Below, one piece after another: positions 33,601 through 49,520 of a DNA stretch of 56,778 nt. Position 1 is the stretch's first letter. Each line of letters opens with the position of its first letter. This DNA is from a virus (lineage: Duplodnaviria > Caudoviricetes). Both the position numbers and the translations under genes were made by a program. Location: positions 1-56,778 of IMG/VR virus record IMGVR_UViG_3300025892_000024. One strand, given 5' to 3'. The notes under the pieces are model-generated. The model had not been told where the DNA came from and did no database searches. It saw only the letters and a program-made list of their open reading frames with translations.

Positions 33601-34006
33601 CCCTGCTGCTTGGGAGCCATCGCAAACAAGTCCAGACGATTTCAAAGTCATGCATGGTATGTTTACTGTGCATGGTGTAAAAGATTTCTTTACTATAATA
33701 GCAGATAGAATTGACTGGTTTAGGTTCTCTAAGAAAGAAAAATTAGAAGATATGGTTGAAGTGATTGAAGAATTTGAAAGCGATATTGAAACTGAATTCG
33801 ATGTAGCCGAACAAAATTTTGTGAACAAAATGGGTGAAGAACCATACCTGACTTCTGAACTTACTAAATACATAACAAACCATTTCAATAAAACCATTCC
33901 AGAGTTCCAAGCAAAATATAGGGCATACATGCTGTCTCCTTCACAAATCAACCAAAGAACTAAGAAAAATCCACCAGATATGATTGACATACATGGCTTT
34001 TACTAA
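30683..34006 (+). CDS. Second modular polyprotein (1107 aa) with NP(P)-delimited domains
   Basis: ATGA overlap with GGGGG SD; NP/NPP at 30704, 31109, 31673, 32018, 32876, 33329 and 33968 separating modules. Confidence 0.9.
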   Translation: MNHEPRSNPIMRLKKMKKPKGRKLRGEVNPIVRKMFRRDQNGVVGAIAYSSKREAKKQFNSKSYVWEFENKYPGEIFEYHLEKQVITGVVRGSDWKKIRPRLHPLDGSPYTTSDIQQVRAADEAPKSTLISLLTDKEVVSHNNPYDPEIIITAPHTFDDKKEDGHDTDWLSESLADELHSTLHNRGVPVLLLKGEIDRDDLDLNRLESENHEFHKTLDDTLPQADMLFDIHSYPPYYPVWADYDIVLFHNGPYHTDEDNLDTLELFEYIQKRIPDASIYIELANETQHFIQNKGLSYDLSSFLIEINETRTDLVEDLAEALADFALGVSPNPPSLLPEGARYHQFTISLPLSTPLNKKLVFPEIMELEMIDKGFTLRKKTLDRVTGTITDFLTFGLPPGMDERPTIGLQRGKKDALLRKAEHLTNDEVILIQDLITESAEKQPIMNPFEPEKDARKELKDIGVEGNKDIDKVVKYIQTGNVSAFTGWNNNRKKKNINHLTDEQYKKIVAMFDSGLSENSTDNEIKEALRKYNIDEPKKGNKLNRSKALQKFHIVGDFSEDEDLEKELKYRNINVSKKGDKLDREKALGQLASKAQIKATKLTDFVEAKAQKMKLSTDVTKSIMEAIIPGASKTIAPGSQTDTRERRKIDGKFMTNNEFKNKFKPKNKQDWNKWNQAQKEKPTNQKGQGNAKEDDWSKEFKLIDGYKTSKRDWRSKQGRVPNWDEWNNAPKANPPVVAIPSEGKFVMDVTDEVVRDATISVIKGKPELDVQGVATGETLDKKMGNIIRINMFRKSAGFKLSRGDANTDYVISIETGGKHFYVKSKVNIDGLAILKHFPTKKSEPRLRVETRGMLQFGNKSGFIRVRGKTHDLYDSVKISQLLLNPTRYAQQYLDDHIPIEDSKIPTSYKKYKLEGPIGSTEFFEQISAKMQNFGEGQGWVKDGHLYWRKGNNADNYVNVDGLMIEGGEAWMHTHPAAWEPSQTSPDDFKVMHGMFTVHGVKDFFTIIADRIDWFRFSKKEKLEDMVEVIEEFESDIETEFDVAEQNFVNKMGEEPYLTSELTKYITNHFNKTIPEFQAKYRAYMLSPSQINQRTKKNPPDMIDIHGFY
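31115..31672 (+). other. N-formylglutamate amidohydrolase-like (Zn-exopeptidase fold) module
   Basis: IITAPH...D...DLNR...FH...LFDIHSY...DIVL...FLIEINE; bounded by NP 31109 and NPP 31673. Confidence 0.75.
33335..33967 (+). other. JAB/MPN-like metal-binding module
   Basis: E...WMHTHP...SPDD (HxH-x-SxxD) at 33593; bounded by NP 33329 and NPP 33968. Confidence 0.7.
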
Positions 34007-34015
34007 GCGTTTCAT

Positions 34016-34036
34016 TGATAGGGACAAAACACTTCC
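34016..34036 (+). promoter_or_regulatory. 21-bp element TGATAGGGACAAAACACTTCC just upstream of the chaperonin ATG
   Basis: 19/21 identical to a minus-strand copy at 42530-42550 that lies a similar distance before the RHH gene ATG. Confidence 0.65.
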
Positions 34037-34043
34037 CCGTTTC

Positions 34044-35540
34044 ATGGATGATAATAAAATCATTAGTGGCCGAGAGGCGCAACGATGGATTGTAGATACT
34101 GCGATGGAAATGGCTGATGCAGTTAGGCACACCTTGGGTCCAAAAGGAATGGATATGATGCTTGTAGATCGTATCGGAAATAAGGTGCTCACTAACGATG
34201 GCGCAACAATACTCCGTTCTTTGGAAACCAAAGACCCCGTAGCTTCAATTATTGCTGAGGTAGCGAAAAGTCAAGAGCAAAACGCATTCGATGGAACTAC
34301 CACATGTATTGTTGTGATGGGGGAGCTATTGAGGCGAGCAGACGAATTAATTTCAAGGGGAGTTCACCCAAATGCAATCATCAAGGGATACAGGCTCGGT
34401 TTAGGCGAGGCATTGGAATCTGCGAAGACGCACAGTATTGAGAAAGAACCGTATGAAGCTGGAAGGGCCGCAGCAAGAACGGCAATCACTGGTAAATCTG
34501 CAGAAGACTTTGTTGATGTTCTAAGCGATATTTGTTCACGTGCTGCTATGATTTCAAAACCAAGTGATATGATGCTTCTTACAATACCAGGTAATACAAA
34601 TGATGCAGAACTGATTGAAGGCCTTGTTTTACTAAAATCACCCGCTACGGCTGGTATGCCATCTAAGACGACTGGAAAGGTTGCTTTGATTGAGCAAGAC
34701 TTGGCCCCACCTCAAGCGCAAGTAACTCTAAACGACCCAGCCAAAATCGCAGAAATCGTCGAAATACAACAGAAATTCATTGAACATACTGTGAATAACT
34801 TCGTTAAACATGAAGTCAAAGCTATATTCTGCCAAAAGAACATCGATTCGAAAGTCCTTCAACTATTGAGGACAAACGGAATTGTAGCATTCCGGCACAT
34901 CAAAAGAAGCAACATGCTCAAACTAGCATCATCGATGGATTGCCATGTCATAAGCGATTTTGCAGATGTAAACGAAGAGGACTTGGGTCATGGCGAGGTC
35001 GAGGTTGTTGAATCAGTAAATGATTACGTGACAATCAAAGGCGAACACATTCAAGCCGCTTCAATCATTATGCCAGCGCCAACTGAACAGTCTGGAGAGG
35101 AATTTCAAAGAGCAATGGAGGACGCTCTTGGTGTTGCTTATCTTGCTGTAAAAGACCGCAGGTTGGTGCCCGGTGCTGGAACAATTCAATCTTTGATGTC
35201 TTATGACCTACTCAACTGTGAACAACAGTACACGGGTAAAGTCGAAGTAGCACGTAAGGCATTCGCTGAATCTTTACTAATCATTCCTCAAACACTTGCT
35301 GAATCTGCAGGTATGGATATTATGGACGTGACAGTACACCTACAAAAAGAACCGAGCTTGGGAGTAAATGTCGATGAAATGGAACTTATGACAATGCTAG
35401 TGTTTGAACCTTTAGCAGTTGTAGAATCCGCACTAAATGGGGCTGTTGAGAATGCTGTATCTCTTCTTAGGACACACTCTATCATCTTAGCGAAACCTAT
35501 TCAAGAGATATTTGCAGAGGCGGAAAGGAGGAAAGACTGA
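34044..35540 (+). CDS. Group II chaperonin (thermosome subunit), 498 aa from ATG 34044
   Basis: TLGPKGMDMMLVD, TNDGATIL, DGTTT, GVHPNAIIKGY, TAITGK, VPGAG, IIPQTLAESAG, VFEP: thermosome/CCT signatures rather than GroEL. Confidence 0.95.
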   Translation: MDDNKIISGREAQRWIVDTAMEMADAVRHTLGPKGMDMMLVDRIGNKVLTNDGATILRSLETKDPVASIIAEVAKSQEQNAFDGTTTCIVVMGELLRRADELISRGVHPNAIIKGYRLGLGEALESAKTHSIEKEPYEAGRAAARTAITGKSAEDFVDVLSDICSRAAMISKPSDMMLLTIPGNTNDAELIEGLVLLKSPATAGMPSKTTGKVALIEQDLAPPQAQVTLNDPAKIAEIVEIQQKFIEHTVNNFVKHEVKAIFCQKNIDSKVLQLLRTNGIVAFRHIKRSNMLKLASSMDCHVISDFADVNEEDLGHGEVEVVESVNDYVTIKGEHIQAASIIMPAPTEQSGEEFQRAMEDALGVAYLAVKDRRLVPGAGTIQSLMSYDLLNCEQQYTGKVEVARKAFAESLLIIPQTLAESAGMDIMDVTVHLQKEPSLGVNVDEMELMTMLVFEPLAVVESALNGAVENAVSLLRTHSIILAKPIQEIFAEAERRKD

Positions 35541-35804: not shown

Positions 35805-35945
35805 ATGAAAAAAATATGCCCAAAACGAAAAGGGGGCAAAACCTGTTCGCCAGTTCTAAGGAACAATGGTCGTTTTATCTGCGTTGATTGCGGGCAAGAT
35901 GTGAAAAGGGGCAAAAAAAGGAGCGCCTTTACACAAACAGATTAG
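35805..35945 (+). CDS. Small Zn-finger protein (46 aa)
   Basis: MKKICPKRKGGKTCSPV...ICVDCG; ATG immediately after the upstream stop. Confidence 0.55.
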   Translation: MKKICPKRKGGKTCSPVLRNNGRFICVDCGQDVKRGKKRSAFTQTD

Positions 35946-36709
35946 TCTCCATATCCGCCTAAACTATCCTTTACCAAATTGACGAGGGTTGAATCTACTC
36001 CAGGCAGAGGTAATGGAGAATGGAGCCTTAGAACATCATCACCGGCAAAAATGTAAGCGAAATAATAGGGGTGAGTTCTCAACCAACTTTTTACTTTAGA
36101 GTAAGCGCCTAGTCCTTGATTTTTCAAGTAATCCTCACGCTCACGCATGAAAAACAAAATACTGTTATTGCATTGGGAATATACTTGCTTGTTGATGTCC
36201 TGTATTCTTTGACCTAAAGCTATCATCAATATCTTCTTCCCTAATCCAGTTGTAGCTAGTCTCTGTAAGCCTTTATGCTTTGACTGATTCCCTGCATAAA
36301 GTTGAATTTCATCAATGAATAAAGCGAAATGGCGGTTTTTGTGCCCTGAAACGGGCGGTTTGTCTGATTTGAGGGTGAAGAGTAAGTTCACTATTTCAGT
36401 CAGCGCCTGCGATCTTGAATCATCTCCCGGCGGACGATAAATAATTCTTGAAGTCTTTAGCATCAAGTGGCCCATCAAGTCTTTTATGTTTCGAACTATG
36501 ACACCATACTTTACAACTGCATCATCATGCTTGGTATCTACGAATATGTAACATGGGTTAGTTCTATTATCTAAGAATCCACAAGTGAACAAACGCATGG
36601 CGGCAGTTGTTTTTCCATACTGTGTCTGCCCAGCAATTACTGTATGTCCTTTTGATAACGCCTTGAACAAAGGTTCCTCTGATGTGATGATGGGTAAAGG
36701 AGAGTCCAC
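35942..36709 (-). CDS. FtsK/HerA-superfamily ATPase, putative genome-packaging ATPase
   Basis: Walker A GQTQYGKT, FVDTK, Walker B LFIDEIQ, GQR motif, compact 255 aa; GGTGA SD with GTG start. Confidence 0.85.
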   Translation of the reverse strand: MDSPLPIITSEEPLFKALSKGHTVIAGQTQYGKTTAAMRLFTCGFLDNRTNPCYIFVDTKHDDAVVKYGVIVRNIKDLMGHLMLKTSRIIYRPPGDDSRSQALTEIVNLLFTLKSDKPPVSGHKNRHFALFIDEIQLYAGNQSKHKGLQRLATTGLGKKILMIALGQRIQDINKQVYSQCNNSILFFMREREDYLKNQGLGAYSKVKSWLRTHPYYFAYIFAGDDVLRLHSPLPLPGVDSTLVNLVKDSLGGYGD

Positions 36710-36713
36710 TTAA

Positions 36714-36977
36714 TCACCGACCATTACGTGATTTTCTCCGTCGCCTTCTGCTATCAAGTATTTGTTTCAACTCTTCTGGAGACAGATTCAGTACCATTGT
36801 AAGATATGTAATAACCAAATTAGACCGGCTCCTATTTTCGCTTTCGGCACGCTTCTCGACTTGCTGGTGCAGTTCGTGAGGCAATCTGATAGTCATAGTA
36901 TGGGTGCTGTTTGCTGGTTTGTCCGTTCCCATAGGTGTGTCGAAGGCGTTTATCCTTTTGAATTGCATGGAATACAT
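36714..36977 (-). CDS. Ribbon-helix-helix (Arc/CopG-like) transcription regulator; start uncertain
   Basis: TMTIRLPHELHQQVEKRAESENRSRSNLVITYL. Confidence 0.85.
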   Translation of the reverse strand: MYSMQFKRINAFDTPMGTDKPANSTHTMTIRLPHELHQQVEKRAESENRSRSNLVITYLTMVLNLSPEELKQILDSRRRRRKSRNGR

Positions 36978-37052: not shown

Positions 37053-38438
37053 ATGGCGGGCAATCAACTACTCCTGATAAACCCGCCCAAAAAAGGTGGA
37101 AGAAAAATGGCTAATAGAAGTAAAGCATCAAGATCGGCAGCCGCTAAAAAGGCAGCAGCAACAAGAAAGAGAAACGCATCAAAGAGAAGCGCAGCAGCTA
37201 AGAAAGCAGCAGCAACTCGAAAAAGAAATGCTTCCAAGGGTAAGCGCAAAGCAACCCGTTCATCAAAATCTTCTCGAAGCGCAGCAGCTAAGAAAGCAGC
37301 AGCAACTCGCAAGCGTAATGCAAGCAAGAGAAGTGCAGCAGCTAAGAAAGCAGCAGCAACTCGTAAAAGAAATGCTTCAAAGGGCAAGAGAAAATCAGTC
37401 CGTTCCACAAAAGCTTCTCGAAGTGCAGCAGCAAAGAAAGCAGCAGCAACTCGCAAGCGCAATGCAAGCAAGAGAAAATCTGCAGCAAAGAAAGCAGCAG
37501 CAACTCGCAAGCGTAACGCAAGAAAGGGTAGCCGCAAATCTGGCCGACCAACTGCAGCAAAACGCAGAGCAGCCGCAAAGAAAGCAGCAGCAACTCGCAA
37601 GCGCAATGCAAGCAAGAGAAGTCGTGCAGCAAAGAAAGCAGCAGCAACTCGCAAGCGTAATGCTGGCAAGAGAAAAGGTTCCAGAAAGGCTCGCAAAATG
37701 GGCGTTGCAAAGCAAGGCAAGTCAGTTTATGATTCATTCATGAAAGGAACTGATATGTTAGTCCCAGGAATGATTACAGTAGGAACTGCACTAGTTGGCA
37801 TGGGTCTTTACAACTCTATCAAATCTATGGCATGGGACAGATTCAATGTCACTGGTTCAACCGGATACATCCAGCAAGCAGCAGACATGATTCCAGTAAT
37901 TACTCCATCCATGGCAGCAGACCTTGGTAACTTTGGAAACAAAGCTCTACACACCGGCTCAGTTGCAGCACTTGGTTACTTACTATCCAACAAGAAAGCA
38001 CTGGGGCTAATCGATTCCAAACTAGCAATGAGTGTAGTCAAACTAACAGGATTGTTCTACGCTGCTCAAATGGTTACTGAATTACAAACCTACAACATTG
38101 GTGGCGCATTCAGAAGCTTAGCAATGGGTGACTTCTCTGGTGCTATGAATGAAATCGGCGGAAGTGCAACTGCTCCTCAGACCTATGGTACTCTAGGAAT
38201 GGCTCACGGAAATGTCGGCGGCGCTCACAACAACATGGGTATGTATCATGTTGGAGGCGGTCACATGGGATCTGTAACCAACAAGAAGTTCTTCGGCGCT
38301 CACAACGGCGCTATGATGCTTCCTCAGAATGTATCTGCTCCAACTGCAGCGACTCAAGCAATGGGTGGCCCAGGTGCAAACGCATTCTTTGGGACAAAAG
38401 GCAGAGGGCTTGGTAGCAGCCGTGTAAACCTCTTTTGA
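37053..38438 (+). CDS. Histone-H1-like basic DNA-condensing/core protein with membrane domain
   Basis: N-terminal LLINPP, 8 x AAKKAAATRKRNA, then hydrophobic helices and a Gly/Met-rich tail ending GLGSSRVNLF. Confidence 0.85.
   Translation: MAGNQLLLINPPKKGGRKMANRSKASRSAAAKKAAATRKRNASKRSAAAKKAAATRKRNASKGKRKATRSSKSSRSAAAKKAAATRKRNASKRSAAAKKAAATRKRNASKGKRKSVRSTKASRSAAAKKAAATRKRNASKRKSAAKKAAATRKRNARKGSRKSGRPTAAKRRAAAKKAAATRKRNASKRSRAAKKAAATRKRNAGKRKGSRKARKMGVAKQGKSVYDSFMKGTDMLVPGMITVGTALVGMGLYNSIKSMAWDRFNVTGSTGYIQQAADMIPVITPSMAADLGNFGNKALHTGSVAALGYLLSNKKALGLIDSKLAMSVVKLTGLFYAAQMVTELQTYNIGGAFRSLAMGDFSGAMNEIGGSATAPQTYGTLGMAHGNVGGAHNNMGMYHVGGGHMGSVTNKKFFGAHNGAMMLPQNVSAPTAATQAMGGPGANAFFGTKGRGLGSSRVNLF
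37137..37664 (+). repeat. Coding repeat: 8 copies of (A)AAKKAAATRKRNA
   Basis: GCAGCWAAGAAAGCAGCAGCAACT-type units are visible directly. Confidence 0.95.
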
Positions 38439-38453: not shown

Positions 38454-39602
38454 GTGGCACGTAAGAAGTCTAGGAAAGGCCGAAGGAAAGCGAAATTTCT
38501 TTCAAAGACAAGGAGCAAACTCAAGTCTTCAGGCGGCAAATTAAAGTCTCAACTTAAAAAAAATGCAACTCTGAAATCCTTGAAACCCTACACTAAGGCC
38601 GGATTTGCTCTAACTGCAACTGGACTAGCTTACGCCACTACATACACCGTTGCAAAAGGTATAGGTCAAACACTATTGCCGGACGCTACTTACAAGACTG
38701 ATGCATGGTTAACTAACACAGACTTAGGTTTAGTCACACAAACAGGTTTGATTGTAGGTTCAACCGGACTTGCTATTAAATTCCTAGATTCTAAATTTGG
38801 CAAGACTGTAGTTCCTAATTTCTTTTCAAGATTCAAAGATGAGAAAAAAATCATGATTGCAGGCTCAACAGCATTTGCAACTGGAAGATTACTAACTGGA
38901 TTAAGCAAAGGTCATGTTGGAAAGCGTTTCCAAGCTTTGTTTGATGCAGACTTGCCAGCAGCGATTTACACCGGCCAGGGTCCTTACTTCAACAGGCCAA
39001 GCAACATACGTGCAATGAATGAAGTCATCAGAGGAGACCTAAGCGATCCATCAGTAAGGCCTGGCCTAACTGACAGATTCTTCAAACTATTCAGTCCAAG
39101 ATACGGCAGTTGGGTCGCAGGTCGAAATCCCTCTAGTTGGAGTAAGACCCACAGAGTAAATATTCCGTCAGGTATTGACAATAACTTCAACTACATGAAT
39201 TTCAAGACTAACAGGCCACTCCTACCTAACAACGTGGCTCCGGTTTCTGTGAATCCAGCGAATCCAGCGAATAATCCAGCGAATAATCCAGCGAATAATC
39301 CAGTGAATAATCCAGTGAATAATCCAGCGAATAATCCAGCGGCAGGTAATGGCCTTAACGCACAATTAGCTAACCCCATCGTCAATCAAGTATCACAAAA
39401 TCAATGGGAAAGAGGAAATAACACTACATCTGCGAAGCACAAATTCACAGCTTGGAATACACCACACAACCACCACACTATGTTTGACGGAAATGTATGG
39501 GGCAGGGGCTCCAGAGGAAAATACTCCAATGATATGACACAGCAGAATCACAACGAACTGCATCAAAATGGATATACCAATTTAAGCAAATATACTTTGT
39601 GA
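38454..39602 (+). CDS. Basic N-terminus plus membrane-domain protein, probable paralog of 37053, with NP tandem repeat
   Basis: K/R-rich N-terminus; FLDSKFG vs LIDSKLA; VGKRFQALFDADL vs IGGAFRSLAMGDF; GGGGGT SD with GTG. Confidence 0.85.
   Translation: MARKKSRKGRRKAKFLSKTRSKLKSSGGKLKSQLKKNATLKSLKPYTKAGFALTATGLAYATTYTVAKGIGQTLLPDATYKTDAWLTNTDLGLVTQTGLIVGSTGLAIKFLDSKFGKTVVPNFFSRFKDEKKIMIAGSTAFATGRLLTGLSKGHVGKRFQALFDADLPAAIYTGQGPYFNRPSNIRAMNEVIRGDLSDPSVRPGLTDRFFKLFSPRYGSWVAGRNPSSWSKTHRVNIPSGIDNNFNYMNFKTNRPLLPNNVAPVSVNPANPANNPANNPANNPVNNPVNNPANNPAAGNGLNAQLANPIVNQVSQNQWERGNNTTSAKHKFTAWNTPHNHHTMFDGNVWGRGSRGKYSNDMTQQNHNELHQNGYTNLSKYTL
39252..39341 (+). repeat. 12-nt coding tandem repeat (AATAATCCAGYG) encoding NPANPANNPANNPANNPVNNPVNNPANNPA
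   Basis: Visible directly. Confidence 0.95.
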
Positions 39603-39613: not shown

Positions 39614-40519
39614 ATGGCACTTGACACAATGGAAGGTTCACTTGGGGGCGGGCTACTGCCAATAGCCAAGAATTCCAGAAGAAAAATCGTTATGATGCAA
39701 GGCGAAGTTAAAAATTTGACACAATCTGCTCCGACTGGTGTTCTGGTTGACGGTTCTGTTGTTAGTGGTACTGTAATAAGGACAGACGGTGTATCGGCAA
39801 GTTCTAAAATTTCTGTCGGAGACCGTATATTTCAATCCGGCTTTTTGACATTTCGCTTTGAAGAACTTGGTACAGTGACGGCCATCACCCCCGTAAGCGG
39901 TCACGAAGATATTACCATAGGTGCCGGCTTTGGGCAAACATATCCTGACCCTTTAGTGGTGCCTGCTAGGACACCTACAGCATCCAACAACGCAGAAATT
40001 TCTGTCGCTACAGTTTATGACATTAGTCCTGACGGTGTAGTGACCGAAGTTTCGGGACACGGGGGCGGCTTAGAATCCGGTTTACAAAACCTCTTCATGA
40101 ATGTGGGGGCTGGAAGAATTAGCATTTATGGTGTCGACGACCAAACGGCAGCGCCATCGGGTCAATTTGAAGACCATGAACGGATAAACAGGATGGGAAC
40201 TGGATTGTCAATGGAATTTACTTTCGGTAGTGAAGTTGATCTAACAGATAGTTTAAATTTAGTTACTGCAGTAGGTTCTTTTGGATTTGACATGACTGCT
40301 GCAGGTATGATGGTTATTGACCCAGCCTCTTCTGTTGCAACTAAAGCGACCCAAGTTGACCGAGTGGCTTTCGGTGCTTGTCATAGAGTTGCGGGTAACA
40401 CGGCAATTTTTCATATCAGTTTACCCTATGAGCAAGAAGGTGGAGCTCAAGAAGAAATTACAGAAAATACCGTTCTCAAATTTTGTATAATGGCAGTTGC
40501 AGACAATGGAGGAATTTGA
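39614..40519 (+). CDS. Beta-rich putative virion protein, PYExEGG family (copy 2) with an inserted domain
   Basis: GAGGTG SD; YDISPDGVVT; ISLPYEQEGGAQ; extra segment containing SVGDRI...GTVTAI. Confidence 0.85.
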   Translation: MALDTMEGSLGGGLLPIAKNSRRKIVMMQGEVKNLTQSAPTGVLVDGSVVSGTVIRTDGVSASSKISVGDRIFQSGFLTFRFEELGTVTAITPVSGHEDITIGAGFGQTYPDPLVVPARTPTASNNAEISVATVYDISPDGVVTEVSGHGGGLESGLQNLFMNVGAGRISIYGVDDQTAAPSGQFEDHERINRMGTGLSMEFTFGSEVDLTDSLNLVTAVGSFGFDMTAAGMMVIDPASSVATKATQVDRVAFGACHRVAGNTAIFHISLPYEQEGGAQEEITENTVLKFCIMAVADNGGI

Positions 40520-42520: not shown

Positions 42521-42529
42521 CAAACTGGT

Positions 42530-43394: not shown

Positions 43395-43949
43395 ATGGCA
43401 CTAGATAATACAGATGGCTTTACACTGGGCGGTTTAGACAACGCTCCTGGTGGAAACGCAGCTAGAATCGCAGTACTACAATTTAACTTGGAATTCCAAG
43501 CCCAAACCGATGTAGGTTATACAGTAGACGCAGATGGGACAGTTTCGACTGCAGTAGGCACAGGCGCCGCAACAGCAGACTTGACGGTCACTCAAGGTGG
43601 CGGGTTTACATTGAAGCAAACAGCAGGTAGCGCAACAGCAGACATTCACGCAACTTACATCTTGTCCTTCGGTGACATCGGTACTACTTTTGCGACCATG
43701 GGAGCAGATGCTAACCAGAACATCACAGTCATAGGTGGAACCGTAAACTGCGGTGCAGACTTAGGCGGTGGATCTGCAGTAGACGCTGCTTGTGCAACAG
43801 CAGTACACTCGATCTCAGGCAATTCGCTTACCTTCTCAGTAGGCCACCCGGCTGTCGTACCAGATGGCAGCGCAGGCCTTGGCGACTTCACTGGCGGAAC
43901 AACCAGCCTGTTCTTCAACGTGATTGCTTTCATTCAACCAACTAACTAA
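43395..43949 (+). CDS. Beta-rich putative virion protein, PYExEGG family (divergent copy 4)
   Basis: GAGGTGA SD; FTLGGL; YTVDADGTVST; VIGG; NSLTFSVGHP; FNVIAF. Confidence 0.85.
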   Translation: MALDNTDGFTLGGLDNAPGGNAARIAVLQFNLEFQAQTDVGYTVDADGTVSTAVGTGAATADLTVTQGGGFTLKQTAGSATADIHATYILSFGDIGTTFATMGADANQNITVIGGTVNCGADLGGGSAVDAACATAVHSISGNSLTFSVGHPAVVPDGSAGLGDFTGGTTSLFFNVIAFIQPTN

Positions 43950-43959
43950 GGTGGTTTTT

Positions 43960-44211
43960 TTGGGAGACGGCTGGAGAGGCACAAAACTTGGTTATGCAGG
44001 TGGTCGTACTGGCTACTTTGCTAACTACGGTAATAGTGATGCTCTCCGAGGTACACGTGGCTTAGGAAGCAATCATGGATCTAACGCCAGAAATCAGGAA
44101 ATCGCAACAATGGTTATCACTGGAATGGGACTCCTTGGGATATTTTACATAGCCCAGGAATACAAATTCTTCGATAAAGTCAGTAAAAAGGCAAAGCAAA
44201 TGATATCGTGA
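43960..44211 (+). CDS. Small membrane protein with KLGY and GLGS motifs (start probably TTG 43960)
   Basis: AGGTGG SD; C-terminal TM. Confidence 0.7.
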   Translation: MGDGWRGTKLGYAGGRTGYFANYGNSDALRGTRGLGSNHGSNARNQEIATMVITGMGLLGIFYIAQEYKFFDKVSKKAKQMIS

Positions 44212-44444
44212 TGGGGGGCTTGGATATGAAAACAAGCACCTTAGAAAAGGTATTAGCCGGCAATTCTAACATGACTCCGTTGCGTGGAGAGCGTCTTGGC
44301 GCTACTGGGCACATCATTGCTCCATTCTCACAAGGGGCAATGATTGGCGGATTAACAGCAACAGTTCTTGCAGTTATGTATGGAGGAGACATCCTTCGGT
44401 ATATTCAAAGTAAAGTTTTGGACTTAGGAGGTTCAACGATTTAA
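44208..44444 (+). CDS. Small membrane protein with RLGATG motif (start possibly ATG 44226)
   Basis: One TM segment; GGGGGG SD before 44226. Confidence 0.7.
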   Translation: MMGGLDMKTSTLEKVLAGNSNMTPLRGERLGATGHIIAPFSQGAMIGGLTATVLAVMYGGDILRYIQSKVLDLGGSTI

Positions 44445-44489: not shown

Positions 44490-45260
44490 ATGGCAAGAGT
44501 AAATTTTGGAAGAACACCGACAGTAAGAGGGTATAACCCGTTGACGAACACATTGAAACCTGGACACGTTATCCAGCTACGAGGGCAATTCTATCTCGTA
44601 GACGCAGTTGAAGGGCTCACATTCGAGCTTGTAGTAACTGCTAATGGTAACACGGCTGGGACAGAGATATCAAAAGGATTTGATTCTGGATACTTTGAAG
44701 ATGAAGATTTAGAACCATTTAGAAATCACCTATATTGCCTTGTTCCTTCGTTATCTGGACAACCTAAATTCATAAACCGAGCAGGGGGCTATGACGAGGT
44801 AGGTTTCCCGAATGATACAACAGAAGTTACACTGACCGCAGGAACAAAAACTATTGGTGCTGCAGCAAGAACTATGGTTGGGCTTATTAGCCCAAGAGTA
44901 TATTTGAAACACCCTGCGGGGATTCCACGATGGCATGCTGATGAAGCTCCAGAAAACGATAAGACAGGATTCATAGATGTAACAGTCAGTCCACATGAAG
45001 ATCCTAACCCGAATTTTGCAATATGGATAGAATCAGGTGAATCACAATTGCCACAGTTCCGCATGGTTAATACAACCGGAGAAGCAATTTTCAATCCAGT
45101 AATATATCTACAGGGGTTCAAAGCTAAATTACAGCCTATGTCTAAGATTGACATTCAGAAGGCTAGAGATGCTAATGGGGGCAAGTTTGTGTACAAAATA
45201 ATCAAACCACAAGGACTACCGCACGCAGGTTCTATGGCAGCCGATTACAACCCCAACTGA
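44490..45260 (+). CDS. Putative second jelly-roll capsid protein (256 aa)
   Basis: Beta-rich; lies in the structural block; clear paralog of 45277. Confidence 0.6.
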   Translation: MARVNFGRTPTVRGYNPLTNTLKPGHVIQLRGQFYLVDAVEGLTFELVVTANGNTAGTEISKGFDSGYFEDEDLEPFRNHLYCLVPSLSGQPKFINRAGGYDEVGFPNDTTEVTLTAGTKTIGAAARTMVGLISPRVYLKHPAGIPRWHADEAPENDKTGFIDVTVSPHEDPNPNFAIWIESGESQLPQFRMVNTTGEAIFNPVIYLQGFKAKLQPMSKIDIQKARDANGGKFVYKIIKPQGLPHAGSMAADYNPN

Positions 45261-45276: not shown

Positions 45277-46677
45277 TTGGCAATAAAAGAATTAACGCAA
45301 CCTAAACCCGCAGACCAACTGCAACCACAACCTCCTTTTGGTAGGGCTCCGGTAGCTACTAAATTCGAAGTTAACGAAATGCATAAACCAGGACAACTGG
45401 TGATGCTCTCTGGAGGCCTTTACAGGGTCAAGTCTAACGAAAAGTTGTCCTTGATGCTCCACATGGGTATTTCGGGGACTTTCACTCGCACAGGTGCGAC
45501 TGCGGGAAATTTCAAAATATTAGAAAATGATAGTAATATCAAAGCAACAAGTTTCACTGTACCTGCAGGTGTGAACATACACATAGGGGCTCAAGGCTCA
45601 AACAACAGAGTCCAAGTAGTGACAGTAGCTTCTGATGCCGCTACTGGCACATCAGGAACCTTTGCAGTATCTACAAATGAAAACATAAACAGCCAGTTCA
45701 CAAACGAAACGGATGCTACCTTGCTATTCGTGCCATCGGCTAGCACAGATTCAACAAACAACAATCTTCTTTTAGAAAAGAAATCATTTGGCATACTAGA
45801 AAGTCCATCATCAGGGCTTACCGTTTACGACCTTGTTTTTGGTATTTCATTACATCCAAAATACACAGGCCGTGACGGAGATATTACCGACGCAGGGTTA
45901 GCTCCCGAATCATTGGAACTGACCTCAACTCAATATGGTACGCAACAATTAGGTTCTATTATCGTAAGAAGTGCAAACGCAGAAAGGGACTTTGATGGTT
46001 CTCAAGAAACTGCCGCTGCCACTGCAGGTGCTTTTGGTGGAGCTAGACATGGCGATTCAGGATATGGCATGAACATGACTCGATTTTCAGGAATGATTTC
46101 TCCGAAAATAAGAATCGAACAACCGGCAGGGGTAGTGAGATTTGCAACCGACAGAAGCAAAGGGTCAGACATCACAAGCGGAAGTTTGACACGTGGAGTA
46201 AATAAGACAGGCTTTTTGACTGCATCAGATACATCAACTCTATCACTAAACCCAAAATACCGAATTATTACAAATTCTTCATCATCGGACGGTTCTTTGC
46301 CAACATTCCAATTATTGCAAGACAATCTTGGTGAGATGAGAGATCCACACATTCTTCTTGTCGGTTCGAAATTAGTTTTGGAAGAAGTATCTGAGGCTGA
46401 GGTAAAAGAAATGATTAGGCGTTCTGGAAAATTCAATTACAAAATAATTGAAGACCCAGTTCAAGCATACAAAAGTCAAACAGATGGAGTAACAGGCCCC
46501 GCCAACGGTTGGAAAGCAGCCGTTGAATCACAAAGGGGTCGAAAAATGAGTTATCAAGACTATAAGGATTTGATTGAAAATATTACGACACAATCTAGGA
46601 ATCAACTATATGGGACAGCGGGTTCAAACCCAAAGCAAATACGTGATGACCCACGTAGAAGACACAGGGGGATTTGA
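45277..46677 (+). CDS. Paralog of 44490 with inserted beta domain(s) (466 aa), putative capsid/turret protein
   Basis: KPGQLVMLSGGLYRV vs KPGHVIQLRGQFYLV; ISPKIRIEQPAG vs ISPRVYLKHPAG; KTGF; LPTFQ vs LPQFR; GKFNYKII vs GKFVYKII. Confidence 0.8.
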   Translation: MAIKELTQPKPADQLQPQPPFGRAPVATKFEVNEMHKPGQLVMLSGGLYRVKSNEKLSLMLHMGISGTFTRTGATAGNFKILENDSNIKATSFTVPAGVNIHIGAQGSNNRVQVVTVASDAATGTSGTFAVSTNENINSQFTNETDATLLFVPSASTDSTNNNLLLEKKSFGILESPSSGLTVYDLVFGISLHPKYTGRDGDITDAGLAPESLELTSTQYGTQQLGSIIVRSANAERDFDGSQETAAATAGAFGGARHGDSGYGMNMTRFSGMISPKIRIEQPAGVVRFATDRSKGSDITSGSLTRGVNKTGFLTASDTSTLSLNPKYRIITNSSSSDGSLPTFQLLQDNLGEMRDPHILLVGSKLVLEEVSEAEVKEMIRRSGKFNYKIIEDPVQAYKSQTDGVTGPANGWKAAVESQRGRKMSYQDYKDLIENITTQSRNQLYGTAGSNPKQIRDDPRRRHRGI

Positions 46678-47315
46678 AGATGGCAGACCATAACATATTA
46701 CCAGACGGAATAACCGATATTGCAGGCGAGGAAATTGATGATGATATTTTGATGCTTTCACCAGTAGACATGGGTGTAGAAGAGTTTAGAAATGAGGACA
46801 ACCGAAACATTACAGTTAGAAAAAGAAATGTCCTCGTTGCCGCTAAAACAAAAGTCAGAATCATTGACAACCACGAATCGGGCAGACTTAACTACGTGAT
46901 GATAAAAGTCACTAGGAAACTGCCTACCGACACATCTTCCTCAACAGGCACCGATCCATCAAAACTTGCTTTGTTTTTGCAACTTGACGGATATGCCCAG
47001 GGCGGTTTTGAATCCGTTTATGACCCTGCTCTTCAAACATCAGTTGCTGGAGTCACCTTACTCACTGTTGGTCAATTGAATTTACCTGAGCAGTTTGGTA
47101 TGTGGTTTCTAACTGTTGATGAAACAGATGAAATTATCGCAATATATAGAGGGAATTCAGATTACAAACATAGAATTAGATTTGAAGTTTTCAACACAGA
47201 TGCAACAGGTTCACTGAATGTTGAATTTGTTGAAATTGCAAGGAAAAGAAGTACTAATAAAGAAGGAAAGTCAAATCAAATTAGAGGTTTGCCGTTCGAT
47301 AAAATGGGGTATTAA
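46674..47315 (+). CDS. Beta-rich putative virion protein (start TTG 46674 or ATG 46680)
   Basis: Translation; position in the structural block. Confidence 0.8.
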   Translation: MKMADHNILPDGITDIAGEEIDDDILMLSPVDMGVEEFRNEDNRNITVRKRNVLVAAKTKVRIIDNHESGRLNYVMIKVTRKLPTDTSSSTGTDPSKLALFLQLDGYAQGGFESVYDPALQTSVAGVTLLTVGQLNLPEQFGMWFLTVDETDEIIAIYRGNSDYKHRIRFEVFNTDATGSLNVEFVEIARKRSTNKEGKSNQIRGLPFDKMGY

Positions 47316-47316
47316 A

Positions 47317-48042
47317 ATGAGTCGTAAAAATAGACTTGTAAGCAAAAACGCATTCGCCTGCAACATTACGATTGGGCCAACATCGTATGCGGTAGCTGGA
47401 GCCGGCCAATTGTCAGGAGACGAAGCCCTAGCCGCCGTCCAAGCAGAGAATCTTGTGGTCTCTGACGGCACTGGTGGTACAACTGGTACTCCCGGCCTTG
47501 ATTATCCATCAGAAGGGAATCATTTTTCTTCAGAGAACGGACAATTCAAAGACTTAGATGCAACGGCTAAACTTGTTATCGATGGCGGCACTGGATCCAT
47601 CTGCAGAGGCATGTTTTTTACAATCGCCGGAGTTGCTGGCACATATTTAGTGACTTCTGTCACTAACAGTACAGTCTTCAAAGTTTTCATAGCCCCTAGT
47701 GTGACTACAATATATTTCAAGAGGAGTAAATCTGGAAACTTAGCAAGCACCCCTGCTAATGATGCAGCACTTACTTTCGATACAACTTTTAAATTACCCC
47801 CGTTAAGAGTGGACCGAGACATTACAGTTGTGAATAATGATACAACAAATGCAATAGGTATTTATGTCGATGCTACAAAAGAACATGGATTACACGAAGT
47901 AGCTGTTCCATCCTCTAGATTTTCATTGTTTCCTACAGCAACATTAGCATCAAGCGCAGCAATGACATTTGAAATGACTGAACCATCAAACATCTTTGTG
48001 AAGGGCACGAACGACTCTACAATTACAATTTTTGGGAGTTGA
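47317..48042 (+). CDS. Putative vertex/spike protein (241 aa from ATG 47317)
   Basis: GGGGT SD; T/G/S-rich beta protein with a GMFFTIAGV...YLVT...IAP...ANDAALTF insertion. Confidence 0.75.
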   Translation: MSRKNRLVSKNAFACNITIGPTSYAVAGAGQLSGDEALAAVQAENLVVSDGTGGTTGTPGLDYPSEGNHFSSENGQFKDLDATAKLVIDGGTGSICRGMFFTIAGVAGTYLVTSVTNSTVFKVFIAPSVTTIYFKRSKSGNLASTPANDAALTFDTTFKLPPLRVDRDITVVNNDTTNAIGIYVDATKEHGLHEVAVPSSRFSLFPTATLASSAAMTFEMTEPSNIFVKGTNDSTITIFGS

Positions 48043-48580
48043 AGATTTGGCTAAAAAGTATTCTGGTGGCGGAGGCGGAGGAAGTTCTGTCACGGTTTCT
48101 AACGAAGCAAACAACAGAGTAATTACATCTGACGGTTCTGGTGGTTTAGTTGGCGAAGCTAATGCTACTTTTGATGGCACTACTTTGGCTATCACAGGTC
48201 AGTTGACTACGACTGCCGATGTAACTCTAGCCGATGGCGCTGATCTAACCCTGCTTGGTACTGCCGGCTTTTTTAGAGCGCCTAGGTTGAAAATTGTCGC
48301 CCTTACTAGCAGTACATCTTTGTCTGTTGGCAACCATGCTGGTTACTATGTTACGGTAAGTGGCAGCGGAATTGTAATCACTCTACCAAATGGTCCTACT
48401 ACAGGTACACATTTTACTATAATTGCTTCTTCTGCGAACTCATTCACTCTTCGTACTGGCAGTGGGGCGGGAAATGGCGATACAATGAATGGGGGACAAG
48501 GAGACATCACAGTTAGTCAATACAGCTCTGTGACAGCAGTTCAAACATCAACAAACAATTATGTGGTCCTGGGTGTTTGA
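48032..48580 (+). CDS. Fibre/receptor-binding-like protein
   Basis: NEANNRVITSDGSGGLVGEANATFDGTTLAITG and C-terminal ITLP...G-F-I...NG...YSSV pattern, typical of phage fibre proteins. Confidence 0.7.
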   Translation: MGVEDLAKKYSGGGGGGSSVTVSNEANNRVITSDGSGGLVGEANATFDGTTLAITGQLTTTADVTLADGADLTLLGTAGFFRAPRLKIVALTSSTSLSVGNHAGYYVTVSGSGIVITLPNGPTTGTHFTIIASSANSFTLRTGSGAGNGDTMNGGQGDITVSQYSSVTAVQTSTNNYVVLGV

Positions 48581-48581
48581 T

Positions 48582-49070
48582 ATGTATTTCGCCAATCCTG
48601 GAGTTCAAGAAAAGTTTGGTTTGGGTCCACTGAGATTTCGTTTAACGGATGAAGTCAGTGGCAATTCCCAAAGAAAATCTAGTAGGGAATACACTGATTT
48701 TCCCTTTGATTTCTTGGTTACACTTCAAATCGGCGATGCTACAGCCGGCAGCTCATTTACCACCTCTGCCGGCGACATAGATTTAAAAATATATCGAGAA
48801 CCATCTGGAAATGATACCGGCTTGACCTATTCGTGGTCAATGTCGTCCTCTGGACTCAAGGGCGGTGGAGGCAGTACTGTAGTCTCTGGAGGGGCAACCA
48901 ACGCCGGCACTTTCCAACCCATATTAACAATCACATGTAGCAGTGCTGAGGGCGGGGAAGTCACGCAAGATTTCTTAACTACGTGCACAGTAACTGAAAC
49001 AAAGGGCAGTGGTCGTACAAGTTCAATAGCGTATGTGATTATGGTCCGGGTTCGTACTATTTTCGAATGA
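48582..49070 (+). CDS. Ser/Thr/Gly-rich Ig-like putative virion protein (start ATG 48582)
   Basis: GGGTG SD; LTYSWS...TCTVTE pattern. Confidence 0.7.
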   Translation: MYFANPGVQEKFGLGPLRFRLTDEVSGNSQRKSSREYTDFPFDFLVTLQIGDATAGSSFTTSAGDIDLKIYREPSGNDTGLTYSWSMSSSGLKGGGGSTVVSGGATNAGTFQPILTITCSSAEGGEVTQDFLTTCTVTETKGSGRTSSIAYVIMVRVRTIFE

Positions 49071-49079
49071 TGGGTTGAT

Positions 49080-49520
49080 TTGATGCTAAGAGGACTAAAA
49101 AAATCGATTCCGCAGTTGATGAAAACATACAGGAATCAATTCCCTGGTTTGACCGTCGAAATTGTGGAGCGATTTAATAATACATTTAACTGTATAGCTT
49201 TTACAATTGGTGAAGAAAAGCGTTGGGTATGGACAGAGATAGATCTTGACTACGATGGCACTTCTTCCTTTTCTGAATTTATCGTTTTTTATCACAAGCA
49301 TGGGTTCGTCCCAACAAATAGCGAAGCAGATGCAGATGTAGCAATTTTTGGCTTTAATGTAAACGGTCATATTGATGTAAAACATGGTGCTAGAAGGGAA
49401 ACAGGAAGCAACTTTTGGTTATCCAAAATGGGCCAAGGTGGAGTGATTAGACATGCTGACCTATATGCTTTTGACAACAGCCCTTATGGTAGCCTGCTTC
49501 TTATGTTCAGAAAGGTTTGA
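49080..49520 (+). CDS. Papain/NlpC-P60-like Cys-His domain protein, candidate protease
   Basis: FNCIAF (Cys), VAIFG, KHGA (His), WLSKMG, IRH, PYG. Confidence 0.6.
   Translation: MMLRGLKKSIPQLMKTYRNQFPGLTVEIVERFNNTFNCIAFTIGEEKRWVWTEIDLDYDGTSSFSEFIVFYHKHGFVPTNSEADADVAIFGFNVNGHIDVKHGARRETGSNFWLSKMGQGGVIRHADLYAFDNSPYGSLLLMFRKV

What the first reader, a model, noticed from the sequence alone, without database searches (positions are those of the whole stretch)
33984..49520. Probable large tailless single-jelly-roll virus of an archaeon
Seen: FtsK/HerA packaging-type ATPase, capsid-like beta proteins, a basic core protein, many small TM proteins, archaeal SD motifs and a thermosome, with no terminase, portal or HK97 gene. 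Established: this gene set typifies membrane-containing icosahedral viruses; cultured Halopanivirales have genomes of about 31 kb or less, and the well-known Poseidoniales viruses (magroviruses) are tailed. Inference: this genome exceeds 56 kb without even showing a replication module, so it may represent a new large lineage, possibly infecting marine Thermoplasmatota.
Basis: partly seen in the sequence, partly recalled or inferred. Interest (0 to 1): 0.85.

Follow-up and report, generated by a model that had tools for sequence, protein, structure and literature searches.

The report
Large tailless archaeal virus fragment
This window is about 45% of a roughly 128-kb marine archaeal virus-like genome whose particle-building genes resemble those of small tailless, membrane-containing viruses rather than tailed ones, which would make it by far the largest genome of that kind in a prokaryote.

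Summary
The window is a whole IMG/VR record, rated 45% complete. It is collinear with two complete relatives of 127.6 and 128.0 kb that are circularly permuted against each other.

Region 33984-49520 holds:
- a divergent archaeal-type thermosome;
- a 255-aa FtsK/HerA ATPase (HerA E 2.4e-5, STIV B204 E 1.7e-3);
- an extremely basic repeat protein;
- small membrane proteins;
- several beta-rich orphan proteins.

No terminase, portal or HK97 capsid gene was detected in the window or in the complete relative.

Its neighbour 45277-46677 is a paralogue with a variable insert. The module recurs in 148 metagenome relatives.

The archaeal host rests on binning and on archaeal-type genes only.

Verdict: probably a new large lineage of tailless jelly-roll virus. 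No particle has been shown, and a capsid-less megaplasmid is not excluded.

The parts
33984..35540 (+). Divergent archaeal-type group II chaperonin (thermosome), the first gene of the conserved block
   Evidence: Pfam Cpn60_TCP1 E 5.6e-105. NCBIfam thermosome_alpha scores 329 bits, below its 450-bit cut-off. 35 virus-family clusters show 94-46% identity, then a gap to cellular thermosomes at 38% or less. The viral clade is monophyletic on a 1.66 stem. Present next to the ATPase in 25 of the 82 relatives searched.
35942..36709 (-). Small (255 aa) FtsK/HerA-superfamily ATPase, the putative genome-packaging ATPase
   Evidence: phrog_2666 E 8.2e-9. Profile against PDB: HerA 2.4e-5, DUF87 3e-4, STIV B204 1.7e-3. 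A distant orthologue passes the Pfam DUF87 cut-off. 33 homologue clusters, one on a 127,872-bp contig named 'Euryarchaeota archaeon'.
36714..36977 (-). Ribbon-helix-helix DNA-binding protein, co-oriented with the ATPase
   Evidence: Weak RHH/Arc/CopG hits, E 5e-4 to 5e-3. PHROG Arc-like repressor E 2e-5. NCBIfam YlcI_YnfO_N E 7e-7. Conserved position.
37053..38438 (+). Extremely basic repeat protein with a hydrophobic, Gly/Ala-rich C-terminal half; candidate DNA-condensing core protein anchored to a membrane
   Evidence: 102 K/R against 9 D/E. 144-bp period in 3.3 copies. Its C-terminal domain is homologous to that of 38454-39602 (hhalign 99.8%). Found in 35 sources. The function is inferred.
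38454..39602 (+). Paralogue of the basic protein (basic N-terminus, shared C-terminal domain, Asn/Pro repeat)
   Evidence: hhalign 99.8% to the 37053 family. 52 K/R against 17 D/E. A 12-bp repeat in 6.8 copies at 39261-39341.
39614..41104 (+). Two tandem acidic beta-rich paralogues (family A: 39614-40519 and 40520-41104). Copy number and sequence vary between relatives
   Evidence: BLASTP among window ORFs. hhalign 100%. Family present in 59 of 82 sources. No BLASTP hit in G001 or G002. The ESM Atlas model is poor (pLDDT 0.41). Fold unknown.
41179..41862 (+). Basic protein with one predicted TM segment
   Evidence: KD segment at residues 128-146, score 1.98. Found in 20 sources.
41859..42523 (-). 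Two conserved small minus-strand genes: a Cys-rich 145-aa protein (41859-42296) and a 76-aa protein (42293-42523)
   Evidence: Found in 34 and 41 sources, at a conserved position. No family hit.
42730..43355 (+). Core module gene, 199-209 aa when intact; in this window it is split by a 1-nt deletion near 42837/42838
   Evidence: Alignment to L047 DNA and to intact proteins of G001, L028, L040 and L047. 51% identity to G001. Found in 56 sources, and kept in the distant 138-kb clade. Fold not determined.
43395..43949 (+). Third family-A paralogue of the region
43924..44444 (+). Two small proteins (95 and 78 aa), the first with a predicted TM segment
   Evidence: KD segment at residues 59-77. Found in 59 and 32 sources.
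44490..45260 (+). Best-conserved module protein (256 aa): a jelly-roll-like beta-sandwich, candidate major capsid protein
45277..46677 (+). Long paralogue of the 256-aa protein (466 aa here, 453-1037 aa in relatives), with a variable insert and a basic C-terminal tail. Candidate second capsid, vertex or spike protein
   Evidence: BLASTP 3.8e-12. hhalign 100%. Length range. The G001 orthologue's insert hits PHROG 'virion structural protein' Ig-like domains at E 2e-26.
46674..47315 (+). Core module protein (213 aa here, up to ~496 aa in the distant clade)
   Evidence: 43% identity to G001. Found in 59 sources and kept in the distant clade. ESM Atlas nearest clusters are unnamed and mostly viral, score 0.93. 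Fold unknown.
47218..49070 (+). Variable stretch of three Gly/Thr/Ser-rich ORFs, absent from G001 and G002
   Evidence: No BLASTP hits in G001 or G002. Found in 30, 9 and 1 sources. Site of the weak phrog_283 hit.
49080..49520 (+). DUF7689 protein, at the conserved end of the block
   Evidence: Pfam E 1e-17. 48-53% identity to G001 and G002.
50736..51671 (+). Large serine recombinase just outside the finding's range, conserved beside the block
   Evidence: Pfam Resolvase E 2.8e-34 plus Recombinase. phrog_95 integrase E 9e-71. Synteny.
1..34006 (+). Co-directional block of orphan ORFs, seven of them giant (757-2789 aa), upstream of the thermosome and collinear in relatives
   Evidence: ORF list. 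Only YbjQ, guanylate kinase, ATP-dependent ligase and DUF7831 domains are recognised. Collinear with G001 and G002 at 26-36% identity. Relatives add DUF5824, a TFIIS Zn ribbon, FGase, Csx3 and Ham1 domains.

Best explanation
The window is about 45% of a ~128-kb circular (or terminally redundant) double-stranded DNA genome. It belongs to an undescribed family of virus-like elements of marine planktonic archaea, most likely Thermoplasmatota such as Marine Group II.

Region 33984-49520 is the element's morphogenesis module. The proposed mechanism is as follows.
- The 256-aa jelly-roll-like protein (44490-45260) builds the shell.
- Its longer paralogue (45277-46677) contributes a variable outward-facing insert as a second capsomer, vertex or spike component.
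- Two further core proteins also take part (42730-43355 and 46674-47315).
- Small TM proteins, together with the hydrophobic halves of the two basic proteins, mark an internal membrane.
- The very basic repeat protein neutralises and condenses the DNA.
- The 255-aa FtsK/HerA ATPase pumps or translocates the genome into the preformed particle, as in PRD1/STIV/SH1-type viruses.
- The virus's own thermosome probably helps fold abundant or giant viral proteins.

Shown: gene content, conservation, synteny, genome size and closure in relatives, the ATPase superfamily, the beta-sandwich model, and the absence of detectable tailed-virus genes.

Inferred: the capsid role of each protein, icosahedral shape, the membrane, packaging of the whole genome, and the host.
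For: Genome and closure:
- The window is a whole virus record, 45% complete.
- Relative G001 is 127,570 bp, rated 100% complete, with a 77-bp terminal repeat.
- G002:C65 is 128,049 bp and circularly permuted against G001, with synteny running across its ends.
- Further relatives lie on contigs of 127,872, 128,652, 128,790, 130,636, 131,576, 138,279 and 139,454 bp.
- 31 of 53 window ORFs have collinear BLASTP partners in G001.

ATPase:
- HerA E 2.4e-5 and STIV B204 E 1.7e-3.
- DUF87 scores above its cut-off in a distant orthologue.

Capsid candidate (44490-45260):
- It is the best-conserved protein of the module. Identity to G001 is 60%, against 48% for the ATPase and the thermosome.
- On the contig where the ATPase is 71% identical, this protein is 88% identical.
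- The AF2 model has pLDDT 74.5.
- Foldseek's first row is an SH1 particle chain at E 0.03.
- 26 of 50 re-ranked rows are icosahedral jelly-roll capsid proteins.
- The first, shallower model gave the same picture.

Paralogue and module:
- The neighbouring paralogue has a variable insert. In G001 the insert carries Ig-like domains typical of virion surface proteins.
- The core set of ATPase, the 42730 gene, the 256-aa family and the 46674 gene is kept even in a clade only 36-38% identical, again beside a giant ORF.
- 148 relatives were found in metagenome contigs.

No tailed-virus genes:
- None were detected among 50 window ORFs.
- None were detected among 136 (Pfam) and 144 (PHROGs) ORFs of the complete relative.

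Not integrated:
- Only G002 itself, of 201 related genomes, has the capsid-candidate gene.

Archaeal signals:
- The thermosome is archaeal-type.
- G001 has an RNA polymerase Rpb1 domain 5 protein and weak TFIIB-like and TFIIS-like hits.
- Two relatives sit in archaeal MAG records.
Against: - Model confidence is moderate, and jelly-roll strand topology was not checked directly.
- Only one module protein was folded. The folds of family A, the 42730 gene and the 46674 gene are unknown, and none of them resembles the 256-aa family in profile comparison.
- No tailless prokaryotic virus with a genome near 128 kb is known to me.
- No evidence of particles or of enrichment in virus-size fractions was obtained.
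- Small FtsK/HerA ATPases also serve plasmids. NCBIfam gave a weak TraD hit at E 9e-4, and Pfam gave a weak TraG P-loop hit on the distant orthologue.
- No replication genes were recognised in the complete relative.
- The host link is by binning only, and the thermosome tree is uninformative on the host.
Confidence: 0.58

Rival explanations
1. The element is a capsid-less megaplasmid or other non-viral mobile element of a marine archaeon. The small FtsK/HerA ATPase serves DNA transfer or segregation. The beta-sandwich proteins with Ig-like inserts are surface or adhesion proteins. The thermosome and the giant ORFs are cargo.
For: - No particle evidence was obtained.
- No structural match is significant.
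- There are weak TraD and TraG P-loop hits on the ATPase family.
- The element carries a serine recombinase, RHH regulators, methylases and glycosyltransferases.
- The literature leaves open a plasmid-like nature for the capsid-less 'group D' marine elements, which were more abundant in cellular fractions (PMC10160649 and PMC5434244; passages read). Identity of this family with group D was not established.
Against: - The ATPase is 242-288 aa, the size of viral B204-type enzymes. The HerA and TraD chains it matched are 500-700 aa.
- The most conserved protein's top structural neighbours are capsid proteins of archaeal membrane-containing viruses.
- A tightly syntenic block of ATPase, basic DNA-binding protein, TM proteins and paired beta-sandwich paralogues is the pattern of tailless virus morphogenesis modules (established knowledge).
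- No conjugation genes were detected in the complete relative.
- Genome size is uniform at 127.6-131.6 kb across several relatives.
Confidence: 0.2
2. It is a virus, but the particle is not an icosahedral single-jelly-roll shell. The 256-aa and 466-aa proteins are spikes or turret bases. The real shell is built by another orphan protein (family A, the 42730 gene or the 46674 gene) of a known or new fold, or the particle is pleomorphic or enveloped.
For: - Only one module protein was folded.
- The long paralogue's variable insert is typical of receptor-binding proteins.
- A 128-kb genome is unprecedented for single-jelly-roll shells.
Against: - The 256-aa protein is the best-conserved protein of the module and is present in all 82 sources, which fits a shell protein better than a spike.
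- The best match covers the whole SPV1 capsid chain.
Confidence: 0.13
3. It is a tailed (HK97-type) archaeal virus related to magroviruses, whose capsid, portal and terminase genes are too divergent to detect or lie in the missing 55% of the genome.
For: - Known viruses of Marine Group II archaea are tailed, and some carry thermosomes (PMC5434244, passages read).
- There is a weak phrog_283 'major head protein' hit at E 4.8e-4 on 47218-48042, and the ATPase's PHROG is labelled 'terminase large subunit'.
Against: - The complete relative G001 shows no HK97 capsid, portal, protease, terminase nuclease or tail genes by Pfam (136 ORFs) or PHROGs (144 ORFs).
- The phrog_283 gene is absent from G001 and G002 and has a median length of 182 aa in relatives.
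- The ATPase is 255 aa with HerA/B204 affinity, not a two-domain terminase.
- tblastn of the ATPase and the thermosome against 50,697 phage records found nothing.
Confidence: 0.05
4. The block from the ATPase to the serine recombinase (about 16 kb) is a small tailless provirus integrated into a larger unrelated element.
For: The block has the size of PRD1/STIV-type genomes and ends at a serine recombinase.
Against: - The block and both of its flanks are collinear in the window, G001 and G002, and the thermosome always adjoins the ATPase.
- None of the 80 fetched loci has terminal repeats that would mark a small circular genome.
- In the distant clade the core genes again sit beside a giant ORF in a 138-kb contig.
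- A family-A paralogue lies at 8872-9546, inside the giant-ORF block.
Confidence: 0.04

Closest known systems
Portogloboviridae (Sulfolobus polyhedral virus 1)
   Different: There is no sequence similarity. The genome is 20 kb against ~128 kb. The host is a hyperthermophilic member of the Sulfolobales, not a marine planktonic archaeon. The ICTV profile lists no ATPase among SPV1's annotated genes, whereas this family keeps a FtsK/HerA ATPase. SPV1 has no thermosome and no giant ORFs.
Halopanivirales (SH1, HHIV-2, HCIV-1, P23-77 group)
   Different: The matches are not significant. There is no sequence or PHROG similarity. The hosts known to me are halophiles and Thermus, not marine plankton.
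Turriviridae / PRD1-type viruses (double-jelly-roll Varidnaviria)
   Same: A small packaging ATPase: STIV B204 matches the ATPase profile at E 1.7e-3. The module logic of ATPase, jelly-roll proteins and membrane proteins is shared.
Magroviruses, including the capsid-less 'group D'
   Same: Marine elements associated with Marine Group II archaea, ~100 kb in size, some with thermosomes. Group D is described as carrying a thermosome, a resolvase and RNA polymerase A, with no morphogenetic block found (PMC5434244, PMC10160649 and PMC11706807; passages read). The complete relative G001 has a thermosome, RusA, a serine recombinase and an Rpb1-domain-5 protein.
   Different: Groups A-C and E are tailed HK97 viruses with a full replisome, and none of that is detectable here. 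Group D is defined by a DNA polymerase B clade, and G001 has no detectable PolB. This family's thermosome is only 38% or less identical to cellular ones, whereas the paper calls magrovirus chaperonins highly similar to cellular homologues. Group D sequences sit in supplements that I could not read, so identity remains open.

Membership tests
Caudoviricetes / tailed magroviruses | HK97-fold major capsid protein, portal, large terminase (ATPase plus nuclease) and maturation protease | tested here: not met
   None were detected among 50 window ORFs (Pfam and PHROGs) or in the complete relative G001 (136 ORFs by Pfam, 144 by PHROGs). The single weak phrog_283 hit (E 4.8e-4) falls on a non-core gene. 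Sequence methods can miss very divergent folds.
Halopanivirales | Two single-jelly-roll major capsid proteins encoded side by side (feature recalled) | tested here: inconclusive
Halopanivirales | FtsK/HerA-superfamily packaging ATPase | tested here: met
   HerA E 2.4e-5 and B204 E 1.7e-3. DUF87 scores above its cut-off in an orthologue. Superfamily membership is shown; a packaging role is inferred.
Halopanivirales | Detectable sequence similarity of capsid proteins or ATPase to family members | tested here: not met
   There were no PHROG hits for the capsid candidates. tblastn of the ATPase against 50,697 phage and archaeal-virus records found nothing. The 256-aa profile against PDB sequences gave nothing below E 0.47.
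   Complete relatives are 127.6-128.0 kb.
Portogloboviridae | Shell of two single-jelly-roll proteins (VP4 hexamers, VP10 pentamers) | tested here: inconclusive
Portogloboviridae | ~20-kb circular genome, Sulfolobales host, nucleoprotein core made by VP1 | tested here: not met
   The genome is ~128 kb and the source is marine. A basic repeat protein exists, but its relation to VP1 was not tested.
Varidnaviria with double-jelly-roll capsids | [quoted passage not shown] | tested here: inconclusive
   No protein with two copies of the core was found. The long paralogue aligns once to the short one. The other module proteins were not folded.
Magrovirus group D | Membership of the group D DNA polymerase B clade | tested here: inconclusive
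   There is no PF00136 match in six frames of the complete relative G001. The window itself is a fragment.
Magrovirus group D | Thermosome, resolvase and RNA polymerase A genes, with no recognisable morphogenetic block | tested here: met
   The window has the thermosome and a serine recombinase. G001 has RusA and an Rpb1 domain 5 protein. Standard annotation finds no capsid genes.

The most novel reading that the evidence does not exclude
This is the first lineage of tailless, membrane-containing, jelly-roll-capsid viruses of prokaryotes with genomes above 100 kb, four to six times larger than any described relative.

It would be an archaeal counterpart of giant viruses. It encodes its own long-diverged chaperonin. 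Complete relatives add an RNA polymerase subunit and TFIIB/TFIIS-like factors. Roughly a quarter of the genome is given over to giant multi-enzyme ORFs.

Its capsid protein family has no detectable sequence relative among known viruses, so it would found at least a new family or order. It may also supply the long-missing particle genes of the capsid-less, thermosome-bearing marine 'group D'-like elements.
Probability: 0.4. Interest if true: 0.9.

Novelty: new variant of a known kind. Interest (0 to 1): 0.78.

Why it matters
Marine Group II archaea are among the most abundant surface-ocean microbes, and their recognised viruses are all tailed. A widespread ~128-kb tailless lineage, with 148 relatives found in one metagenome scan, would add a second major virus type for these hosts.

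It would also break the apparent size ceiling of jelly-roll/FtsK-ATPase viruses outside eukaryotes. That bears on how giant viruses could grow from small tailless ancestors.

It would give concrete candidates (44490-45260 and its neighbours) for the capsid genes of thermosome-bearing marine elements. Three papers leave open whether those elements are viruses, plasmids or something else.

The giant orphan ORFs, which fuse ligase, kinase, Csx3, Ham1 and TFIIS-type domains, are a separate puzzle. They may relate to nucleic-acid repair or counter-defence.

Tried and rejected
Relatives and context
- Single-protein scans of IMG/VR with the ATPase, the 466-aa protein and the thermosome found no relatives.
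- tblastn of the ATPase, the thermosome and a small homologue against 50,697 phage records found no match.

Atlas and complex prediction
- ESM Atlas on 40520-41104 gave a poor model (pLDDT 0.41) and noise-level hits.
- ESM Atlas on 46674-47315 gave only unnamed clusters and no model.
- Complex prediction of the 466-aa and 256-aa paralogues gave 'no answer' (score 0.18 against a mark of 0.32, controls not run). This counts neither for nor against binding.

Small homologues of the 256-aa family (14 clusters of ~175-193 aa)
- Their genomic context could not be obtained. Alignments were too variable for the locus finder.
- A single-protein scan found nothing.
- A degenerate motif scan of IMG/VR gave 0 matches.
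- I considered a link to the 4.6-kb 'Charybdis' elements of Poseidoniales (bioRxiv 10.1101/2025.08.03.668216, passages read). It was left unsupported.

Comparisons that gave nothing
- Profile-profile comparison of 15 module families showed no relation of family A, the 42730 gene, the 46674 gene or 47218-48042 to the 256-aa family (all probabilities at or below 8%).
- PDB profile searches with the 256-aa family and with two giant-ORF families gave nothing below E 0.4.

Host and identity
- The thermosome tree did not nest the viral clade in any cellular clade.
- Searching for PolB in the 118-138-kb metagenome contigs was not possible, because those records are not held.
- A paper search for a Tara scaffold name found nothing.
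- Four paper searches found no description of a tailless or FtsK-ATPase virus of Marine Group II. Supplements were closed, so group D contig lists could not be compared.

Expression
- Parts of 42700-47400 without RNA-library contigs say nothing about expression.

Full report
**What the window is.**
The 56,778-base window is an entire IMG/VR virus record. It has no end repeats and CheckV rates it 45% complete. GC content is 38-45% and there are no tRNA genes. Genes are tightly packed, often with overlapping stop and start codons, and many are preceded by GAGGTGAT-type or G-run Shine-Dalgarno motifs (22 of 53 by a strict pattern). That is prokaryotic gene organisation.

Of 50 ORFs scanned, only 5 pass a Pfam cut-off:
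- a thermosome;
- a large serine recombinase;
- a YbjQ domain;
- DUF7689;
- a 2,789-aa ORF carrying guanylate kinase, ATP-dependent ligase and DUF7831 domains.

**Checking the observation.**
- The thermosome (33984-35540) is archaeal-type but divergent. It scores 329 bits against a 450-bit cut-off for thermosome_alpha, and is well ahead of the eukaryotic CCT models.
- The 255-aa ATPase on the minus strand (35942-36709) belongs to the FtsK/HerA superfamily. A profile of 22 homologues hits HerA at E 2.4e-5 and the STIV B204 packaging NTPase at E 1.7e-3. A distant orthologue passes Pfam's HerA central-domain model.
- The protein at 37053-38438 has 102 Lys/Arg against 9 Asp/Glu and a 144-bp repeat. 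Its hydrophobic C-terminal half is shared with the next gene (hhalign 99.8%).
- The scan gives a predicted TM segment in 13 of 53 ORFs.
- No terminase, portal or HK97 capsid gene was detected.
Relative to its closest relative, the window lacks one base near 42837/42838. This splits a gene that is intact in four relatives.

**The whole genome, seen through relatives.**
The ATPase has 33 homologue clusters, one on a 127,872-bp contig that NCBI names 'Euryarchaeota archaeon'. Scans with an ATPase alignment recovered two complete relatives:
- an IMG/VR record of 127,570 bp with direct terminal repeats, rated 100% complete (G001);
- a 128,049-bp contig in a 'Methanobacteriota archaeon' MAG (G002:C65).

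G001's repeat is 77 bp. G002:C65 is circularly permuted relative to G001, with gene order running across its ends. So these are closed ~128-kb genomes, not pieces of chromosome.

The window is collinear with G001 positions 125,256 to 66,773, and 31 of 53 ORFs have partners. Among 201 genomes related to the MAG, only the MAG itself carries the capsid-candidate gene. This argues against a common integrated provirus.

**No tailed-virus genes in the rest of the genome.**
In G001 I scanned 136 ORFs outside the shared part with Pfam, and 144 ORFs of at least 85 aa with PHROGs. What they show:
- RusA and RNase H;
- an 843-aa protein with RNA polymerase Rpb1 domain 5;
- Mom and DNA methylases;
- glycosyltransferases;
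- a PAPS-reductase-like protein;
- a weak TFIIB-like hit.

They show no capsid, portal, protease, terminase-nuclease or tail genes. They also show no DNA polymerase, primase or helicase.

The only 'head protein' signal in the window is phrog_283 at E 4.8e-4 on 47218-48042. That gene lies in a variable stretch that G001 and G002 lack.

**The capsid candidate.**
The 256-aa protein (44490-45260) is the best-conserved protein of the module. It is 60% identical to G001, where the ATPase and thermosome are 48%. It is 88% identical on the contig whose ATPase is 71% identical.

An exhaustive profile search found 79 relatives:
- 324-359-aa orthologues;
- 577-1,016-aa proteins that share the core;
- 14 clusters of ~175-193-aa proteins that appear to be the minimal core.

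With a 44-sequence alignment, AlphaFold2 gives an all-beta model with pLDDT 74.5 and pTM 0.69. The structural searches gave:
- Foldseek's first PDB row is a chain of the SH1 particle at E 0.03.
- In the re-ranking of Foldseek's list, 26 of 50 rows are jelly-roll capsid proteins of icosahedral viruses.
- The earlier 17-sequence model gave the same picture.

None of these scores is significant by the tools' own standards. I therefore read the fold as 'jelly-roll-like beta-sandwich, nearest to archaeal membrane-virus capsid proteins'. It is not a proven single jelly roll.

**The module around it.**
One metagenome scan found 148 relatives and fetched 80 loci. Iterative searches over these plus G001 and G002 (82 sources) show a conserved order:
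1. thermosome;
2. ATPase (-);
3. RHH protein (-);
4. basic repeat protein;
5. its paralogue;
6. variable copies of acidic family A;
7. two small minus-strand genes;
8. the 42730 gene;
9. family A;
10. two small proteins, one of them TM;
11. the 256-aa protein;
12. its long paralogue;
13. the 46674 gene;
14. a variable stretch;
15. DUF7689;
16. serine recombinase.

The long paralogue (466 aa here, 453-1,037 aa elsewhere) has one copy of the core plus a variable insert. In G001 the insert carries Ig-like domains that match phage 'virion structural proteins'.

A clade only 36-38% identical, on a 138-kb contig, keeps the ATPase, the 42730-type gene, the core protein and the 46674-type gene, again next to a giant ORF. 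This four-gene core is what I take to be the morphogenesis module.

**Mechanism proposed.**
By analogy with PRD1/STIV/SH1-type viruses (established knowledge) and with SPV1 (ICTV profile):
- the 256-aa protein forms the shell;
- its long paralogue is a second capsomer, vertex or spike subunit;
- TM proteins and the hydrophobic halves of the basic proteins sit in an internal membrane;
- the basic repeat protein condenses DNA;
- the small ATPase loads the genome.

All of these roles are inferred.

**Host.**
Archaeal-type thermosome, Rpb1-domain, TFIIB-like and TFIIS-like sequences point to an archaeon. So does the placement of two relatives in archaeal MAG records.

The MAG's own thermosome clusters with 'Euryarchaeota archaeon' and 'Thermoplasmatota' sequences. 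The viral thermosomes form a separate clade on a long stem, so they do not identify the host.

Near-identical DNA occurs in marine and seawater metagenomes of several studies. Contigs from three RNA libraries cover parts of 42876-44154, which is a weak hint of expression at most.

**Relation to what is known.**
Papers on viruses of Marine Group II archaea describe tailed magroviruses. They also describe a 'group D' with a thermosome, a resolvase and RNA polymerase A but no morphogenetic genes, whose nature is left open (PMC5434244, PMC10160649 and PMC11706807; passages read).

The present family fits that description except in two respects. It has no detectable DNA polymerase B, which is what defines group D. 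Its thermosome is also far from cellular ones. I could not compare sequences because the supplements are closed.

My four literature searches found no description of a tailless or FtsK-ATPase virus of these hosts.

**Rivals.**
- A capsid-less megaplasmid remains possible. There is no particle evidence and the structural scores are middling.
- A virus with another shell protein is also possible, because only one protein was folded.
- A tailed virus and a small provirus nested in a larger element are unlikely on the evidence above.

**Verdict.**
This is most likely a new, large lineage built on the tailless jelly-roll/FtsK-ATPase plan. The decisive structural and particle evidence is still missing.

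Noticed in passing
window 1-34006: This is a co-directional block of orphan ORFs, seven of them giant (757-2789 aa). Domain content is shuffled between relatives. The window's 2789-aa ORF fuses guanylate kinase, ATP-dependent ligase and DUF7831. Relatives add DUF5824, a TFIIS Zn ribbon, an FGase-like domain, Csx3, a weak Tpt1 hit and Ham1. It may be a nucleic-acid repair or counter-defence polyprotein set. Two of the families gave no PDB sequence match.
   Followed up: partly
window 42730-43355: A 1-nt deletion relative to the closest relative, near 42837/42838 beside a short A run, splits a core module gene. It could be an assembly error or a real mutation. The X7 DNA contigs that were laid do not cover the site.
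   Followed up: partly
window 18202-18585: This 127-aa orphan protein is the most conserved protein of the whole window, at 70% identity to G001. In G001 it sits at a different place in the gene order. It has no family hit.
   Followed up: no
window 8872-9546: A fourth paralogue of acidic family A lies inside the giant-ORF block, far from the other three.
   Followed up: no
proteins P0103-P0135 (no locus): Fourteen clusters of ~175-193-aa proteins share the whole core of the 256-aa capsid candidate without its inserts. Their genomes could not be found. They may belong to smaller relatives or to satellites.
   Followed up: partly
window 39261-39341: A 12-bp tandem repeat in 6.8 copies at 97% match encodes an Asn/Pro repeat in the 382-aa paralogue of the basic protein.
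   Followed up: no
window 37022-37052: A TATA-like octamer lies 24-31 nt upstream of the start codon of the basic protein gene, with no SD motif in between. This would fit an archaeal promoter giving a leaderless transcript. It is a single anecdotal case.
   Followed up: no
G001 (L011-L014), positions 1-66,700: The half of the genome missing from the window is mostly small orphan genes on one strand. It also holds RusA, RNase H, an 843-aa protein with Rpb1 domain 5, Mom, three DNA methylases, a PAPS-reductase-like protein, a polynucleotide-kinase-like ATPase, two glycosyltransferases and a weak TFIIB-like hit. No replication proteins were recognised.
   Followed up: partly
window 42876-44154: Contigs from three metatranscriptome libraries of two studies match parts of this stretch at 90-100% identity. 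One run is 100% identical over three ~151-base pieces. DNA carry-over cannot be excluded.
   Followed up: partly
window 47218-49070: This is a variable Gly/Thr/Ser-rich gene stretch between the conserved core and DUF7689. It is absent from G001 and G002 and present in 30, 9 and 1 other sources respectively. It is a plausible host-range cassette.
   Followed up: no
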